64,000 nt of DNA. Source: Octopus vulgaris. Lineage: Eukaryota. Below are positions 3,674 through 63,290 of the stretch, one piece after another (the first letter of the stretch is position 1; each line of letters opens with the position of its first letter). The position numbers and the translations under genes are program-made. The notes under the pieces were generated by a model. That model had not been told where the DNA came from and ran no database searches. It saw only the letters and a program-made list of their open reading frames with translations. Where the stretch lies: the NCBI GenBank assembly GCA_951406725.2, contig OX597831.1, forward strand, positions 10,354,001 to 10,418,000, read 5' to 3'.

Positions 3674-3836
3674 TCAGTATTGATTCATAATTGCGGTACA
3701 TGTCCTTTTCATTCCTTTAGTTGAACCGTTTTACTCCGGAGAAATAAACAAATCAAACCCGATTGTCAAGTATTGATAGAGAATAACAACATCTCAAACG
3801 TAAAACACTTACGTATATATTCACGTGAGTATATAT

Positions 3837-4066
3837 ATTTCTTTACCACCCACAAGGGGCTAAACATAGAAAGGACAAACAAGGACAGACAAATGGGTCA
3901 AGTTGATTATATCGACCCCAGCGCGTGACTGGTACTTTATTTATAGACCCCGAAAGGATGAAAGGCAAAGTCGACCTCGGCGGAATTTGAACCCAGAACG
4001 TAACGGCTGACGAAATACGGCTACGCGTTTCGCCCGGCGTGCTAATGTTTCTGCCAGCTCGCCGCC
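3837..4066 (-). mobile_element. SINE family B, full length, tail type 1
   Basis: Reverse complement of ggcggcgagctggcagaaac..gttcaaattccgccgaggtcgactttgcctttcatcctttcggggtc..gccccttgtgggtggtaaagaaa; colinear with the copy at 60196-60426. Confidence 0.9.
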
Positions 4067-4233
4067 TTATACAGATTTTCAAGGTTGTGTAATTTTAGTC
4101 CATCAGAATCCTCCATTGCTGACATAATTTTCTTTTCTACTCTACTCAAAGTGGACCTCGGTGGAATTTGAACTCAGAGCGTTAAGACAGACGAAATACT
4201 GCTAAGCATTTCGCCCGGCGTGCTAACGTTTCT

Positions 4234-5894
4234 TCTTTCTTTATTACCCACTAGGGGCGACACAGAGGGGACACCACAAGACATTTGGGACATAGAACAT
4301 TATAATTAAAATTTATGAAGAATGAATTATTAACTGAAAAAATGATAATATGAAAGCGATGCTAACGGCCCCATCCGTTAGCATCACTTACCTGTCCTTT
4401 GGTTTTCACTGTCACTTAAATGTTCATTCCCAATACGAAGACCATCCATACCCATTCTTACTCCGAAATACTCCTCCATATTTTCCACGAATTCATCGCT
4501 CATTCTTGTGTCTTTCACCTCCCAATTCTCCCTTTCACACCTCAACATAAACTCATCTATTCTCTTCTTTTCAATCACAGCATACCTGGTCTCACCTATT
4601 TCATACCATTTATATTCTTCCATTACCCTTTTAACTTCTTTCTGTTCTGTCATAGTACAATTGTTCGGCCTGGGTTCGATTTCAGTCTCCTGTCTGTCCG
4701 CATTAACCTTTCTTTGCTTTCCCGCTGGAGGGGTGCGGGTGGGTTCACCGTCTGCAGGGGAAGGGCGGGACCCAGAGGGCGCGGGTGGTGTTGGGGTGGA
4801 TTGGCGCTCCATGCCACATTCCCCCCTCCCACTCTCCTCCTCCTCCTCCTCCTCCCAGCCCCACTCCACTCCTGCGAACTCCCTTCCTCTTCCACCGTCT
4901 CCCCCTCCTCCTCCCTCTGCGGCTCGGAATCCATTTCCTTCACTGGGGGAGGACAGCAGGCTCCTATGTGACCCCTCAGGCCACACCTGCAACAACGTGG
5001 AGCAACGCCCCCCACCCACACTCCCACGATCACGTCTCCCAATCCGATGCCCTCCGCCAGGTCCACCAGCACATCGTTCTCCGCCTGCACATCTAGTTCC
5101 ACTGTCACGCCCCTCCAGCCCTCGGTCCCAACCGAGGCATGGAGGATGTCCACTCCATCCTCGCGGCCGCCGACCACAGCCGCCACAATCCACTCGGCCT
5201 CAACGCTTGGGGGCACTCCCCCGACCCCCACTCTTGCAATTCCTCCATTCAGATATGTAGGCAAAAGCACTACCTTCTCGGACTTCACCGTCCTCGCCGC
5301 CATCTTCCTTGCTGCACTCTCACCTCTAAACTGCACCACCACAGCACCACACCTTGAACCCCTCGTCAGAAAACCAATCTCCTCCTCCGTTCCTCCCAGC
5401 GCCCCCTCCATCCACTCCATGTTCACCACCTCCATCCTCCTCCCTTCGCCCGCGAACACCCTGCATATGATGGTCCCTCCTTCGCACCACTCCTCACTCC
5501 TGGGTGTCGGTGCCAGCTCGACCACACCGCCCTCGCTCCCCATACATCTCTGGAATCCGGCAGCCCGGCCAAGCCCACCCCCTCTCCTCCGCCCTCCTGG
5601 TCACTCCGGCACAGGTAAGACCCAGTTTCCGGTCTATCCTCCCCACTGCCTCCTCCAACTCCTCCTCAGACGCAGACAAGTCTGATAGGGACTCAAAAAC
5701 TCCAGCCGCACCTCCCATCAGGGAGGGGCCGTCCACATCCTTCCGTCCGACAGACCGAAAACGGCCGCCCGAACAGAAACGCGAAACCGCATCAACAAAC
5801 GCACAAAACTCCACAATAACAACAACCCTCCCACTCACCCCCTGTTCCCCTTTACAAATTTTCACGAGCCGAAAAAAACACAACCGACGTCAAA
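4234..5894 (-). mobile_element. Non-autonomous non-LTR retroelement encoding ORF1 only (HAL1-like, L1/Tx1-type)
   Basis: Sharp GC-rich island. 18-bp TSD cggcgtgctaacgtttct (4216-4233) / cggcgtgctaaggtttct (5895-5912). 3' end carries AATAAA and an A-rich tail. Gag-like ORF present; no RT or endonuclease coding seen. Confidence 0.8.
4384..5718 (-). pseudogene. Gag/ORF1-like nucleic-acid-binding protein with CCHC zinc knuckle; probably two frameshifts
   Basis: CX2CX4HX4C (CCRCGLRGHIGACC) at 4953-4994, preceded by an RRM-like segment (ARVGVGGVPPSVEAEWIVAAV) typical of L1/Tx1 ORF1. Protein-like sequence switches between track ORFs 5494-5883, 4650-5543 and 4384-5193. Confidence 0.75.
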
Positions 5895-6878
5895 CGGCGT
5901 GCTAAGGTTTCTGCCAGCTCGCCGTCCTTCACGTGAGTATATACTTACGTGAATTTATACATATGTATATACTCACTTACGTATATACTCATGCATGCAT
6001 ACACATACATACATACAGGTATATGACGTGCTTCCATTAAATTCAAGGCATGGATTTAATGATCGGGGGTCTTCAGTGAACTACACTTGCCCGAAAGTAC
6101 CTACATGCATAACTTCAATAAATTATATTCTTTTTTCTCTCTTTTTTCCGTCTCAACAAGCGGTATATATATTGATTCTCTTTAGAAAATAGGAAAAATA
6201 CTTCGGAAAATTTCCTTTCGAATCTCTGCGGTCTGAGTTCAGTCTCGAGCAAAAGCAGTTTCTGCTTTCAAGCCTATCGAGATCGATATAAACATATTTC
6301 GAACCCAGGCTGGTTGATTGATAAAAATGAAAGAACGACAGACCGGTATCTTACAATTGTTTTTATCATCTCTTACCGCCTGAGTTCAAATCCTAACAAG
6401 GTCTTCCTTGGTTGTAGATATCGGTATACTTCGAACAACTGATATCCACATGGTTTTATGGTCTCTGGTTTCATTCCTTACTATTTTAAAAAAATTATAT
6501 AACAGGAAACTATTCTTGATGCTAAAATGGAACAGAGAAAGTGATTACAGAGAAACGCCTGTTTTTGTTACAATATCGATGAGGAAGGTAGAGTATCGAA
6601 CTTGCAGAATCATTAGCGTGCCGGACAAAATGCTTACCTGCGATTCGTCAGTCTTTAACTTATGTGTTCAAATTCGCTGACTGATTTCGGCTCTGATAAA
6701 ATAAGGACCAGTTGAGCACTGATGTTGATGCAATCAATCTGCCCTTTCCACCTGTCCTTGAGCTAAAATTTGAAACCGATATCAATGGAGAGAAGCGAGA
6801 GGAACGTAAAGGTATGGGGTTTGAATTTACGTATGGCAATAACGACGACGGCGATGAAATTGAGAAGTGGATGATTGT

Positions 6879-7049
6879 GGCGCAGGAGTGGCTCTGTGGT
6901 AAGTAGCTTGTTTACCAGCCACATGGTTCCGGGTTCAGTCCCACGGTGTGGCACCTTGGGCAAGTGTCTTCTACTATAGCCTCGGGCCGACCAAAGCCTT
7001 GTGAGTGGATTTGGTAGACGGAAACTGAAAGAAGCCCGTCGTGTATATG

Positions 7050-7097
<48 letters not shown>

Positions 7098-7315
7098 TGT
7101 GTGTGTGTGTGTTTGTTCCCTAGCATTGCTTGACAACCAATGCTGGTGTGTTTATGTCCCCGTCACCTAGCGGTTCGGTAAAAGAGACCGATAGAGTAAG
7201 TACTGGGCTTACAAAAGAATAAATCCCGGGGTCGAGTTGCTCGATTAAAGGCGGTGCTCCAGCATGGCCGCAGTCAAATGACTGAAACAAGTAAAAGAGA
7301 AAAAGAGTTAAAGAG
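6879..7315 (+). mobile_element. tRNA-derived SINE family A, full length (resembles octopus OR-type/CORE SINE)
   Basis: A-box-like tggctctgtggt, B-box-like gggttcagtccc, CORE-like ccttgggcaagtgtctt, internal (TA)n(TG)n, and tail ggtgctccagcatggccgcagtcaaatgactgaaacaagt(aaaagag)n. Confidence 0.9.
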
Positions 7316-31403: not shown

Positions 31404-31425
31404 TATATATATATATATATATATA

Positions 31426-31800
31426 GGCGCAGGAGTGGTAAGTAGCTTGCTAAACAACCACATGGTACCGGGTTCAGTCCCACTGCGTGGCATCTTGGGC
31501 AAGTGTCTTCTGCTATAGCCCCGGGCCGACCAATGCCTTGTGAGTGGAATTGGTAGGCAGAAACGGAAAGAAGCCTGTCGTTTATATGTATATATATGTG
31601 TATGTGTGTGTATTTGTCCCCCTAGCGTTGCCTGACAACCGATGCTGATGTGTTTACGTCCCCGTCAATTAGCGGTTCGGCAACAGAGACCGATAGAATA
31701 AGTACTGGACTTACAAAGAATAAGTCCCGGGGTCGATTTGCTCGACTAAAGGCGGTGCTCCAGCATCGCCGCAGTCAAATGACTGAAACAAGTAAAAGAG
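31426..31800 (+). mobile_element. SINE family A, full length
   Basis: Colinear with 6879-7315. Confidence 0.9.
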
Positions 31801-31813
31801 TATATATACACAC

Positions 31814-42883: not shown

Positions 42884-45086
42884 TATCTACTACACTGGTC
42901 AGGTTCTTGCCCTTTATTATATTCTACGTTATGAATGCTTAACGTGTATCCGAATAAGACTATTCATCTTAGTAAAGCCAATACACCTGGTTCATGTGAT
43001 ATCGCTGTAGGACAAGTCTCTTTCGTCATAGAATTATATTTTTTAATTAGGGTCTTCCATGAAATTTCATATTTTTTCTCAACCAGTCTCCTTCAAGGTT
43101 TGAATCCATTGAGTAAAAATGTATCACTCCTATCACTGTAATTTTTTGGTAAAATATATTCTTCCTTATATTCCCAAAATTTTCATTTTTTCCCTTTCAT
43201 ATTCACAAAAACATTTCTACCTCAGTCTACCTGTCATTATTTGGAACCATATTTTGTACTTTTAAATGTGTTTCTGAAAGTGATTTTTCTTGTTGTTTGT
43301 AATTGTTTAATTCCAGATAAGCCCTGAACAAGCTGCTGTGTAATTAAAAAAACTGGTTGGGCAAGGCTGGAATAATGCTGTAAAATGAAAGAAGCGTCTG
43401 TCTGTTGTGTTTGGGTTATGTTGTACAGCAGCCGTTTCGTCGCCATTTCGTTAAAGCATAATAGAATATGCCACGCTTCAATGTGTCCAACTACGCTTTG
43501 GTCTTGCTTTCCGTCACAGTAAGCTTTACATACCTTAGATTTGGGAACGAATATTCATTTAGTAACCAACGGCGATGTATAGGTAGAATTCTTAATGGGA
43601 AACGAGAAGTCGTACGGTGTCTGTCGTGGCTCTTTATATTCAGAGTTATTCATTGATAGGGTTAATTCAACACCCGGTTGAACATCACTCCTGACTCCTT
43701 GCATGATAATCAGAGAATTAGATGTATTCGAGATAGAAGCACTAACGTCCTAAGCAAAAAGATACCCGATCTTCCTGCACATGAATAAATAAAAGATAGC
43801 TGTAAAATTTATCTCCACAAGCGAAAACTTTAGAAATTAGATTCAAGTTTCACTTGCAGTTTATCTGGTGAAAGTTATGTCTTTCATGAACAGGCTTCGG
43901 CCTCTGGCAAGCAACAGGATAACATATATATAATATAATAATGTGTTGTAGTGACGCAATATATGTCTAGTCAGAAATGCGTCGAGGTTCTCGGCTCATA
44001 AAATTTGACATCGTCTTTTATCTTATCCGGCCACTGCTAATAAGAACGTAAATACATTGATATAAACTTCGTCTGTTTGTAAAAGCAAGAAAATGTAAAA
44101 TATAGAATTAAAAATTGCAGTCATTGGTTGGAATTGAAAATATCGCAGATGAATGGTGTTATCAGCTCATAAGTGTATTTCATAGAATTTATCATTATCA
44201 GCCAAGCAATTGTTCCTGTCCATTGAAAATAAAAATTATTAACTTGAAACAGGTTTCTCTCTGTACAACATGACGGACTCTGGCAATATATTTTGTAATC
44301 AAATATTTTGGTAAAAATAGCATTAACGTTGTTGGCTAAGAATCAGAATTAGAACTAGCTAATGGCATTGATTGTTATTATTCTTAAAACAGCCTTTCAA
44401 TCAAATAGAATAAAACGCATTCATAGCTCATTCTGATTTAATACTAGTTTCCAAGTTTAATTAAAGGAGAAGCAAATAAATTGTCCTACCGCATAAAATT
44501 TAATACCAGACGAGTTATAATTATATTCCGTTGTCATATATTAACCTGAGACACAAAACACACACACAAACACACACATACACCAATATATATAATGTAA
44601 GATGCCATTAATAGCTGTGCAATTATTAATGCCTCATAAGAGTGGACAAAAATAATAAATCCTAAAGATCGTAAGATTTTACAGATCCAAAAACACATTA
44701 AAAAGTACAAAATATGGTCCCAAATAATGACAGGTTGACTGAGGTAGAAATGTTTTTGTGAATATGAAAGGGGAAAAAATGAAAATTATGGGAATATAAA
44801 GAAGAATATATTTTACCAAAAAATTACAATGATAGGAATAATACATTTTTACACAATGGATTCAAATCTTGAAGGAGACTGGTTAGGAAAAAATATGAAC
44901 TTCCATGGAAAACCCTAATTAAAAAATATAATTCTATGACGAAAGAGACTTGTCCTACAGTGATATCACTTGAACCAGGTGTATTGACTTTACTAAGATG
45001 AATAGTCTTATTCGGATACACGTTGAGCATTCATAACTTAACTTAGAATATAATAAAGAGCAAGAGCGTGACCAGTGTAGTAGATA
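42884..45086. mobile_element. Non-autonomous element with ~390-bp terminal inverted repeats
   Basis: 42884-43273 and ~44690-45086 are diverged reverse complements; the paired track ORFs 42935+ and 45030- are near identical. Confidence 0.75.
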
Positions 45087-48610: not shown

Positions 48611-48681
48611 TGTACAAACACATACACACACGCACATATATATATATATATATATATACACCTGTTCATATATTCATATAT

Positions 48682-49046
48682 TCTTTTATTCTCTTATTAG
48701 TTTCAGTCATTTGACTGCGGCCATGCTGGAGCACCTCTTTTAGACGAGCAAATTGACCCCAAAACTTATTCTCTGTAGGCCCAGTACTTATTCTAGCGGT
48801 CTCTCTCATAAACTCACCAGCAACGCTTGTCACGCGATGTTGGGGGACAAACACAGACGCACAAACATATACATACATATATATCTATATACGACGGGCT
48901 TCTTTTAGTTTCCGTCTGCCACATCCACTCACAAGGCTTTGGTCGGCCCGAGGCTATAGTAGAAGACACTTGCCCAAATTGACCCGCAGTGGGACTGAAC
49001 TCGGAACCATGTGGTTAGTAAGCAAGCTACTTACCACACAGCCACT
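48682..49046 (-). mobile_element. SINE family A
   Basis: Reverse complement of the 6879-7315 pattern. Confidence 0.9.
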
Positions 49047-49436
49047 TAAATATATGTGTGTATGTGTGTGCGTGTGTTGATATAATACACACACACATAG
49101 ACACATATATGTAAGCACATGAATATAGGTTTCTACATTTCTGTATTAAAGATGTCCCAGGCAAAGGAGAATAAAAATAACAACAGAACATGGACCATCA
49201 AAGACTTCAAACGTAAAAAACCTATCATGATCCCAGCAAAAACCCCGGTACAAACACAATAGCAGACAAGTAAATAAAATTGCCTCCAGCCCTATCGATT
49301 TATGGCCTCAATTCCTCGAGTGAGATTGGATTCTACGATATTCATGTTGCTCTTACATGTAGAATCGTTAGAATTAAGTTTTCATGCTTATGTTGGAGAA
49401 CAAACGTTTTGTGTCCAACCTCTATCGCTATATCAG

Positions 49437-56435: not shown

Positions 56436-56507
56436 GGTCTCATGGTGTAATGGTTAGCACTCTGGACTCTGAATCCAGCGATCCGAGTTCATGTCTCGGT
56501 GAGACCT
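56436..56507 (+). tRNA. trnQ-CTG: tRNA-Gln(CTG), possibly a retroposed copy
   Basis: 72-nt cloverleaf: acceptor GGTCTCA/TGAGACC, anticodon arm CTGGA-CTCTGAA-TCCAG (CTG at 56469-56471), T arm CCGAG-TTCATGT-CTCGG (A58 replaced by T), then trailer catatac and T6. Confidence 0.9.
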
Positions 56508-56514
56508 CATATAC

Positions 56515-58483: not shown

Positions 58484-58856
58484 TGACTGTGGCCATGCTG
58501 GAGCACCACCTTTAGTCGAACGAATCGATTACATGACTTATTCTTTGTAAGCCTGGCACTTATTCTATCGGTCTCTTTTGCCGAACCGCTAAGTTGCGGG
58601 GACGCAAACACACCAGCATCGGTTGTCAAGCGATGTTGGGGGGCCACATATACACAAACATATACACACACACATACATTTATATATATGTATACAACGG
58701 GCTTCTTTCAGTTTCCGTCTACCAAATCCACTCACAAGGCTTTGGTGAACCCGAGGCTATAGTAGAAGACACTCGCCCAAGCTGCCATGCAGTGGGACTG
58801 AACCCAGAACCATGTGGTTCGTAAGTAAGCTGCTTACCACACCCCCACTCTTACGC

Positions 58857-58857
<1 letters not shown>
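58484..58857 (-). mobile_element. SINE family A
   Basis: Reverse complement of the 6879-7315 pattern. Confidence 0.9.
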
Positions 58858-58895
<38 letters not shown>

Positions 58896-61869: not shown

Positions 61870-62872
61870 ATATGTATATTTAAGTTTAATTAGGTTTTAT
61901 ATGAGGCCACAAATGGCTGCAGAAAGACATAAAGTTTTACTTCTGTCCAATATCTGATAAGTAAAAGAAAGAAAACAAAATGAATTTCACTTCCAGCATA
62001 GCAAAATTATCCGAATTGTTGATAGGAATCTTTTAAACCTGAATTGACATGTTATTAAGTGAAAAATTGTTAGAGTCATAACATTAAAATCTATCCGTAA
62101 TTTTACTGAAATGTATTTGGCTTGTGGTTTACCGATGCAAACACAGATAAACCATTCTATATATTTAAGCAACAATAACAGCAACAGCAACAACGACACT
62201 AAGATGATAAATAGGGATGCACGCATCTTATATGACACAAATATGCACACTCATTAAACTAATAAGATATTGCATATTATGTTATGCATATAGGTATACA
62301 TACATACTTATTAATTCATTCACATGCTGACAACAATAAATGGCTTATATACACTAATACGCACATGGAGTTGTGCATTAATTTTAAAGTTTGTTCCCTA
62401 GCATGACTAAATTGTAAAGCAATTATTTAGTATACTAGAATGATGTATCAACTTGAATTTCCCACTTGTATTTATCAAACGTTCTTTTCAATTGGTAGAC
62501 TGTATTTTAATACTTAACTTTGTATTGCTCTGAAGAGAAGATAATGGCGGACGTTATGTAGTGTTCCATGTTGTTTTAAAGTTTTCGGTATTTATTAACT
62601 TGCTGACGTTCCTGAATAAACCTGCGCCATTATAATATGAATAACTTCCATATTATTTGCAGGAAACCCAATGCTTCAGACGCTTGCTTTCATACATCTA
62701 ATAAGTAATACATATCTCATCAGTCTAATGGATTCATATTTATTAAACTTTGGTCTTGTCATCGATTTTGGATAGTTTGTCGACTAGAGCTTCGTTTTAA
62801 TGTCAGAAGGGTTGCTCGATTTTCCGCTATAGGTATAAGAACCATTTAGAAAAATAGAACGAGATCTTCTGG

Positions 62873-63020
62873 CAGTGTGGTAAATAGCTTCCTGATCAAC
62901 AACATGGTTCTGGTTTCAATCCCACTGCGTGGAATCTTGGGCGAGTGTCTTCTATTATAGACTCGGGCGGACCAAATCCTTGTGAGTGGATTTGGTTGAC
63001 GGAAACTGGAAGAAGACCGT

Positions 63021-63057
<37 letters not shown>

Positions 63058-63290
63058 GTGTGTGTGAGTGTGTTTGTGTTTGTGTGTGTGTGTGTGCCCC
63101 AACCACCTCTTGGCAACCGATGTTGGTGTGCTTATGTCCCCGTAACCTAACAGTTCGGCAAAGACACCGATAGAATAAGTACTTGATTTACAACAAATAA
63201 GTCCTGGGATCGATTCGTTCGACTTTTCAAGGCGGCGCTCCACTATGGCCTCGTCAAATAGCTGAAACAAATAAAAGTATAAAAGAATGA
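62873..63290 (+). mobile_element. SINE family A
   Basis: Colinear with 6879-7315. Confidence 0.85.

What the first reader, a model, noticed from the sequence alone, without database searches (positions are those of the whole stretch)
4234..5894. ORF1-only (HAL1-like) retroelement that inserts into the SINE family sharing its 3' tail
Seen: a 1661-bp element with an 18-bp TSD, a short 5' leader, a ~445-codon gag-like frame (CCHC knuckle, two inferred frameshifts), a ~150-nt 3' UTR, and no RT or endonuclease. The TSD is part of the family B SINE head (agaaacgttagcacgccg in SINE sense), and the element lies in the same orientation as the SINE. Known: HAL1 elements encode ORF1 only and borrow ORF2 in trans, and many Tx1-clade elements are sequence-specific for multicopy targets. 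Inference: a three-part system in which an autonomous Tx1/L1 mobilises both this ORF1-only element and a SINE, and the SINE spreads new target sites for them. I do not know of a description of this in cephalopods.
Basis: partly seen in the sequence, partly recalled or inferred. Interest (0 to 1): 0.85.

Follow-up and report, generated by a model that had tools for sequence, protein, structure and literature searches.

The report
RNA-edited half-LINE inside an octopus SINE
This is one copy of a large octopus jumping-gene family that kept only its RNA-binding gene and likely borrows a partner's enzyme; the family lands in the SINE only occasionally (far more often in a Helitron repeat and at its own front ends), and this copy carries about 150 A-to-G changes that were likely made by RNA editing before it was written into DNA.

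Summary
The element is real: 1661 bp, 17/18-bp target duplication in a SINE head, ORF1 with CCHC knuckle, no RT. It belongs to a family of hundreds of ORF1-only copies (64 other near-full copies in one capped search) whose ORF1 is under purifying selection (dN/dS 0.08-0.30) and which shares its 3' tail with the SINE and with APE-RT LINEs. SINE nucleotide 13 is a true hot spot (5 loci, at least 89-fold enriched) but a minor one: 1 of 51 tails on contigs C1-C2. The main sites are a non-autonomous Helitron (140 exact junctions) and the family's own 5' leaders, giving head-to-tail arrays of 11 or more units. Short-read contigs of other studies carry the Gs. Best reading: a HAL1-like partner of an L1/Tx1-group LINE, here a hyper-edited RNA fixed in inherited DNA. 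The scan noted both the arrays and such edited copies before on other DNA. New variant of known kinds.

The parts
4234..5894 (-). ORF1-only (HAL1-like) non-LTR element, full length
5737..5894 (-). 5' leader (158 nt); its GGTCGTG/T-run start is shared by ORF1-only units and a LINE and is itself an insertion site
4384..5736 (-). ORF1, about 449 codons, broken by three indels, start codon reads GTG; 68-72% identical to an intact 472-aa relative
4953..4994 (-). CX2CX4HX4C zinc knuckle, invariant in 8 of 8 aligned ORF1s including LINE ORF1s
4705..5850 (-). A>G hypermutated tract: 148 of 355 A sites changed, against 6 of 150 in the 3' remainder
4234..4383 (-). 3' UTR; last ~45 nt are the tail shared with SINE and LINEs
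5895..5923 (-). SINE head nt 2-30, holding the 5' copy of the target duplication (5895-5912); no A>G changes
4154..4233 (-). rest of the interrupted SINE (nt 13-92), beginning with the 3' copy of the target duplication (4216-4233)
3836..4063 (-). separate full-length copy of the same SINE family next door

Best explanation
The element is a full-length copy of an ORF1-only retrotransposon family that likely borrows endonuclease and reverse transcriptase from L1/Tx1-group LINEs through a shared 3' tail, and this copy's RNA was likely hyper-edited by ADAR before it was inserted at a minor hot spot in a SINE head. Shown: multicopy family with one fixed ORF1-to-tail structure; purifying selection on ORF1; ORF2-bearing LINEs and the SINE share the tail; 9-21-bp target duplications; recurrent sites in a Helitron, the family's own 5' leader, SINE nt 13, a Mariner and one further repeat; head-to-tail arrays; strand-specific A>G bursts with ADAR's neighbour order. 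Inferred: (1) ORF2 acts in trans by target-primed reverse transcription; (2) a loosely specific endonuclease re-cuts at or just upstream of the last insertion, so arrays grow at their 5' end; RNAs that begin in flanking target DNA would give the seamless, repeated 5' junctions; (3) long double-stranded RNA made of sense and antisense unit transcripts is deaminated by ADAR in the germ line and inosine is copied as G.
For: Family: 64 other copies cover at least 1,250 of 1,661 bases at 77-86%; about 160 forward-strand exact tails; intact 440-472-aa ORF1s; dN/dS 0.08-0.30 between unedited copies; ORF1 only 34-42% identical to the LINE ORF1 core, so an old lineage. Partner: 5.25-kb LINE with endonuclease, RT and zf-RVT, nearest solved relative human L1 ORF2p, E 1e-65, same tail, same Helitron site. 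Targets: 140 tail-Helitron and 59 tail-leader exact junctions, 0 in reversed controls; 16 filled Helitron hosts average 93.5% identity while young units on different contigs are identical, so insertion came after host spread; 5 loci at SINE nt 13 against 0.002-0.06 expected. Editing: 152 A>G, 9 G>A, 8 T>C, 9 C>T; 11 of 132 units flagged for A>G, 0 of 132 for each other transition; 5' neighbour T 0.38, A 0.30, C 0.14, G 0.05; 3' G 0.24, C 0.21, A 0.14, T 0.13, the order U>A>C>G and G>C>A>U of Eggington 2011; edited copies lie on both contig strands and share almost no other derived change; short-read contigs of two other studies match the edited tract.
Against: No functional test of trans-mobilisation; several LINE lineages share the tail, so the partner of this copy is not pinned down. 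The Helitron tree is star-like (2 of 35 branches supported), so some spread of filled Helitrons by rolling circle is not excluded. Many unit-unit and Helitron junctions lack a plain target duplication. No source of double-stranded RNA was tied to this copy: no inverted copy in the window. Porath 2017 reports a downstream A preference for invertebrate hyper-editing, whereas G and C lead here. LINE samples without editing are small (0 of 9 long copies, 0 of 29 3' ends). C-to-T decay of new CpGs may lower the 5'-C rate.
Confidence: 0.8

Rival explanations
1. One reading: a sequence-specific Tx1 system whose target is the SINE head, the SINE spreading new landing sites for the ORF1-only element.
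For: Five loci hold A/W-type units at exactly SINE nt 13, four with nearly the same 5' junction; these four are not one clade; a second ORF1-only family (E) sits there too; SINE-after-SINE junctions fall on nt 13 or 46 in 18 of 19 non-ascertained cases.
Against: 1 of 51 tails on C1-C2; 2 of 30 best 3'-end matches; 2 of 30 for family E and its parent LINE, both being the ascertained copies; 0 ORF2-bearing LINEs among 84 junctions; 84 junctions against 41,751 exact sites.
Confidence: 0.1
2. Arrays and shared junctions come from hitchhiking and recombination: one filled Helitron (or SINE dimer) was copied as a unit, and arrays grew by unequal exchange or by reverse-transcriptase template jumping rather than by repeated targeting.
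For: Many filled Helitrons share the same 5' junction and lack 11 host bases; runs of identical units in one array; unit-unit junctions often have no duplication.
Against: Hosts are far more diverged than their units; unit order differs between arrays; LINE and D units begin with a 12-14-bp copy of the Helitron site; truncated single copies have their own duplications.
Confidence: 0.25
3. The A>G burst is not ADAR's work but reverse-transcriptase misincorporation under skewed dNTP pools, a DNA-level mutator, or an assembly error.
For: No RNA-level editing was shown here; no duplex partner was found for this copy.
Against: RNA-strand-only A>G with a sharp 3' boundary; strong 5'-G avoidance, chi-square p 3e-35; flanking SINE halves unchanged; independent contigs carry the Gs; controls 0 of 138 SINEs, 0 of 37 Helitron pieces.
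Confidence: 0.1

Closest known systems
HAL1 (half-L1) of mammals (Kojima 2018, PMC5753468, passages; Bao and Jurka 2010 not held)
   Same: Non-autonomous, encodes ORF1 only, arose more than once (here lineages A/W/C, D and E; E still shows the deletion joint: 27 codons of ORF2 fused to the LINE 3' end).
   Different: CCHC-knuckle ORF1 rather than mammalian L1 ORF1p; defined non-poly(A) tail shared with a SINE; recurrent targets and long arrays.
Tx1-Mar and SINEU of crocodilians; Tx1 in Tx1D of Xenopus (Kojima 2015, PMC4494074, parts 2-3 and passages)
   Same: LINE and non-autonomous partners prefer fixed positions in a DNA transposon; tandem insertions around a duplication; both duplications and truncations of the target; 5' extensions from the target.
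   Different: Main host is a Helitron-type repeat; partners are ORF1-only elements; several unrelated targets; arrays of 11 or more coding units.
HeT-A/TART/TAHRE telomeric arrays of Drosophila (PMC5537684, passages)
   Same: Head-to-tail, one-way arrays mixing an ORF1-only element with ORF2-bearing partners.
   Different: Here interstitial, inside repeats, with target duplications; L1 group; no telomere role shown.
ADAR hyper-editing of repeat RNA (Porath 2017 PMC5625713; Eggington 2011 PMC3113232; Albertin 2022 PMC9068888; passages) and APOBEC-edited genomic retroelements (Knisbacher and Levanon PMC4866542; Zaranek 2010 PMC2873906; passages)
   Same: Dense one-type changes, upstream G depleted; edited elements fixed in a genome.
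   Different: Those papers, in the passages seen, treat A>G at RNA level and G>A at DNA level; here A>G is fixed in DNA of non-LTR copies. A>G-hypermutated avian retroviral proviruses are a precedent (recalled, not read).

Membership tests
HAL1-like ORF1-only non-LTR element | Encodes ORF1 only, no ORF2 | tested here: met
HAL1-like ORF1-only non-LTR element | Amplified as a family with one ORF1-3'UTR structure and retrotransposition marks (5' truncation, target duplications) | tested here: met
HAL1-like ORF1-only non-LTR element | ORF1 homologous to that of an autonomous L1-group LINE and kept by selection | tested here: met
   34-42% core identity, invariant columns, dN/dS 0.08-0.30
HAL1-like ORF1-only non-LTR element | Mobilised in trans by ORF2 of the partner | not testable with these tools
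   inferred from shared tail and shared sites
Mammalian HAL1 proper | Descent from mammalian L1 (coiled coil-RRM-CTD ORF1p; feature recalled) | tested here: not met
   ORF1 has a CCHC knuckle and no match to L1 ORF1p chains by profile; a parallel origin
L1 group (L1/Tx1) for the partner LINE | ORF2 with APE endonuclease, RT and C-terminal zinc motif, nearest to L1 | tested here: met
Tx1 clade | RT phylogeny groups with reference Tx1 elements | not testable with these tools
   no named Tx1 references were returned
Tx1 clade | ORF1 of RRM-like domains plus CCHC knuckle (feature recalled) | tested here: inconclusive
   Atlas look-alikes 0.90-0.93 with CCHC, ZCCHC3 RNA-binding and RRM families; ferredoxin-like fold at residues 180-264, best Z 7.6, ACT and RRM rows tied, model pLDDT 50
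Target-specific for the SINE (Kojima's rule: more than 20% of flanks) | SINE in more than 20% of flanks | tested here: not met
   1 of 51, 2 of 30
Helitron (host repeat) | 5' TC, 3' hairpin and CTAG, between A and T, no duplication | tested here: met
   CTAG then T in 17 of 17 copies with the hairpin motif; ATCT start in 19 of 21 shown; no RepHel gene, so non-autonomous
ADAR hyper-editing signature | Clustered, strand-specific A>G with 5' U>A>C>G | tested here: met
ADAR hyper-editing signature | Identified double-stranded RNA substrate and RNA-level editing | tested here: inconclusive
   inverted units exist at two other loci but none is tied to this copy; contigs cannot show editing

The most novel reading that the evidence does not exclude
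Octopus carries a guild of ORF1-only retroelements that inherit their landing site from flanking DNA carried in their RNA, stack into self-extending arrays in Helitrons, SINEs and Mariners, and whose germ-line transcripts are hyper-edited by ADAR often enough (about 1 copy in 12) that RNA editing is a regular source of heritable mutation; edited, ORF1-dead RNAs still jump, and may seed further copies.
Probability: 0.35. Interest if true: 0.82.

Novelty: new variant of a known kind. Interest (0 to 1): 0.64.

Why it matters
It gives a dated DNA record of ADAR acting on retrotransposon RNA in a cephalopod germ line, which makes the proposed defence role of cephalopod editing (Albertin 2022) testable: edited fraction, edited intervals and fate of edited copies can be counted. 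It also shows ORF1-only parasites arising repeatedly from one LINE group outside mammals, under long selection on ORF1, and offers a natural series for how loose target preference, co-transcribed flanks and self-insertion build arrays. The SINE-as-target idea alone would be a smaller point.

Tried and rejected
SINE as the family's target: rejected on counts. A SINE-specific autonomous parent: the two 'LINE' ends at the SINE site proved to be ORF1-only family E, and its parent LINE lands elsewhere. SINE head carried as a 5' tag to other sites: the junction pattern gave 3 exact copies, all inside SINEs, and 1 chance match. A strict endonuclease consensus: none seen by eye among duplications. tRNA origin of the SINE: no Rfam or ARAGORN match; it rests on recall of octopus SINE papers. 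Pfam on window frames: nothing significant. Foldseek: no match at E 0.001. Protein search found only 5 close proteins, all named Octopus by their source; 368 distant representatives, 25 scanned, mostly CCHC only. No RNA holder listed for the window stretch; four guessed-RNA contig sets cover a young unit but show no A>G excess, which contigs cannot reveal. LINE ORF1 control (8 copies) was too small to score. Ten literature searches found no description of cephalopod ORF1-only elements or of ADAR-edited non-LTR copies fixed in DNA; subscription journals, Repbase Reports and the supplements of PMC13282606 (not opened) may hold one.

Full report
Observation. The element lies at 4234-5894 on the minus strand between two 18-bp copies of SINE nt 13-30 that differ at one base. 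It has a 158-nt leader, an ORF1 of about 449 codons broken by three indels, a CCHC knuckle and a 150-nt 3' UTR. No RT or endonuclease is present. The genome (G000, 2.8 Gb) is an octopus by the source names of the nearest proteins.

It is a family. A capped DNA search (34 of 630 candidate regions scored) gave 113 matches, of which 64 besides the window cover at least 1,250 bases at 77-86% identity. A 3'-UTR-plus-tail pattern has 160 forward-strand matches; the reverse count is inflated by repeated end points. Many units have an intact 440-472-aa ORF1. Between unedited copies dN/dS of the ORF1 core is 0.08-0.30 (11 copies chosen to span the tree). The core is only 34-42% identical to the ORF1 of the LINEs found beside it, so this is an old ORF1-only lineage. 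Lineages D and E are further ORF1-only types; E keeps 27 codons of ORF2 joined to a LINE 3' end. ORF1 look-alikes carry CCHC and RRM-type families; the model (mean pLDDT 50) has a ferredoxin-like domain at 180-264 with no decisive match.

Partners. Arrays end in a 5.25-kb LINE with endonuclease, RT and zf-RVT, nearest in the PDB to human L1 ORF2p. It, a second LINE lineage, the SINE and all ORF1-only types share about 40 nt of tail. Trans-mobilisation is inferred from this and from shared sites. L1 versus Tx1 could not be decided.

Targets. Tail followed by SINE nt 13 occurs 84 times exactly. Of these, 82 were read (77 SINE, 1 deleted SINE, 4 ORF1-only) and 2 were known ORF1-only copies (window, L164): 78 SINE, 6 ORF1-only, no ORF2-bearing LINE. 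With inexact junctions, A/W-type units occupy this site at 5 loci (window, L145, L147, L164, L245). With 41,751 exact SINE heads, or ten times that, 0.002-0.06 are expected, an 89-fold excess at least (the window itself is one of the five). The four in the tree are not a clade. So the site is a real hot spot. It is minor: of 51 distinct tails listed for contigs C1 and C2, tallied by eye, 21 abut a unit's own leader, 6 the Helitron, 3 another repeat, 1 the SINE and 20 other DNA; 2 of the 30 best 3'-end matches are in the SINE. The main host is a 1.1-kb non-autonomous Helitron-type repeat (1,065 candidates; ends): 7 of 30 copies are filled (the query came from a filled copy), and 140 exact tail-Helitron junctions exist, of the first 100 listed 55 with the LINE tail, 41 with the unit-type tail and 4 D-type (by eye). 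Tail-leader junctions number 59. Sixteen filled hosts average 93.5% identity and form no clade in any of 200 bootstrap trees, though the tree is poorly resolved, while young units on different contigs are identical: insertion came after the hosts spread. Arrays mix subfamilies in different orders and reach 11 or more units. Single and truncated copies have 9-21-bp duplications at diverse sites. Repeated seamless 5' junctions, apparent 11-bp losses and 19-68-bp host pieces between units fit RNAs that start in the flank and anneal by homology, as Kojima 2015 discusses for R2 and SINEU; this is inferred.

RNA editing. The window copy had a long, G-rich branch. Against close relatives it has 152 A>G among 513 A sites, with 9 G>A, 8 T>C and 9 C>T; 148 of 355 sites are changed in element nt 1-1190 and 6 of 150 beyond. 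The start codon is among the changed sites. Among held copies, 9 of 125 cores and 11 of 132 units show A>G bursts; none shows bursts of the other three transitions. A first pairwise scan also listed 10 G>A cases, all mirror images of the A>G copies. Neighbour rates are 5' T 0.38, A 0.30, C 0.14, G 0.05 and 3' G 0.24, C 0.21, A 0.14, T 0.13, the order in Eggington 2011 (PMC3113232, passages and Table 3); Porath 2017 (PMC5625713, passages) reports upstream G depletion in all animals but downstream A in invertebrates, which does not match here. Overlaps between edited copies are mostly 1.5-2 times uniform expectation with almost no other shared change, so the events are largely independent; L160 and L163 may share one. 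Controls: 0 of 138 SINEs, 0 of 29 LINE 3' ends, 0 of 31 C units, 0 of 37 Helitron pieces, 0 of 9 long LINE copies. These samples were gathered by similarity to the window copy, which favours edited relatives, so 8% may be high. Short-read contigs at single-copy depth from two other studies match the tract (465 nt with no other letter in X2; 305 nt with 3 in X4, another organism label), so it is genomic and inherited. The duplex that ADAR needs was not identified.

Comparison and novelty. It works like HAL1 (PMC5753468, passages) and like the Tx1-Mar/SINEU system (PMC4494074, parts 2-3 and passages), with arrays recalling HeT-A/TART (PMC5537684, passages). The octopus repeat annotation (PMC13282606, part 1 and passages) lists L1-Tx1 families without ORF1-only types, targets or editing. 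Albertin 2022 (PMC9068888, passages) calls a defence role of editing against repeats unexplored in cephalopods. Knisbacher and Levanon (PMC4866542), Zaranek 2010 (PMC2873906) and PMC5974252 (passages) cover G>A DNA editing or RNA-level A>G; PMC4758252 (passages) cites the octopus SINE paper. Ten searches found no print description of either feature in cephalopods; the library lacks most subscription papers. Earlier notes of this scan, looked up after my reading was fixed, describe the same arrays in this genome and another octopus, and edited copies in other genomes; they supplied two papers and are not counted as support.

Verdict. Observation confirmed; interpretation partly supported. New variant of known kinds; interest 0.64, carried by the edited copies and the array system more than by the SINE site.

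Noticed in passing
G000:C2:138.766-138.786 Mb (L239+L240): Array of at least 11 ORF1-only units followed by a LINE; 7 ORF1 cores identical; the array runs off the fetched stretch.
   Followed up: partly
L120:1800-2130 (Helitron-type repeat): By eye, the insertion site lies inside a decayed fragment of an ORF1 of this same LINE group that the Helitron seems to have captured.
   Followed up: no
SINE nt 46; e.g. L073, L083, L086: Second hot spot: 15 of 42 non-ascertained SINE tails are followed by SINE nt 46; could also be a dimeric SINE subfamily.
   Followed up: partly
L162:5966-6500, L167, L180, L068: A recurrent site near the end of a Mariner transposase frame takes ORF1-only insertions; two copies elsewhere (L159, L165) carry that site's sequence at their 5' end.
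   Followed up: partly
L234, L235, L236: Three copies of one old clade share the same 3' flank, an unidentified repeat or a 3' transduction.
   Followed up: partly
L233:360-2600 and L246:7050-9170: Family E: ORF1 plus 27 codons of ORF2 joined to a LINE 3' end; a separate origin of an ORF1-only element.
   Followed up: yes
L160 and L163: Two edited copies share 19 of 21-24 A>G sites in their overlap (5.9 expected), so one edited copy may have been propagated.
   Followed up: partly
L177 and L248: Inverted units within or beside arrays, possible sources of double-stranded RNA.
   Followed up: no
window 5291-5498: Contigs of runs X2, X3 and in part X4 carry a few more RNA-strand Gs than the assembly, so alleles of this insertion differ at edited sites.
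   Followed up: no
window 6874-7310, 31404-31802, 48680-49063, 58484-58881, 62870-63288: A second, ~400-bp dispersed repeat family in five copies; also a 400-bp inverted pair at 42884-43276 / 44688-45086 (92%).
   Followed up: no
window 56436-56508: ARAGORN calls a tRNA-Gln(CTG)-like gene.
   Followed up: no
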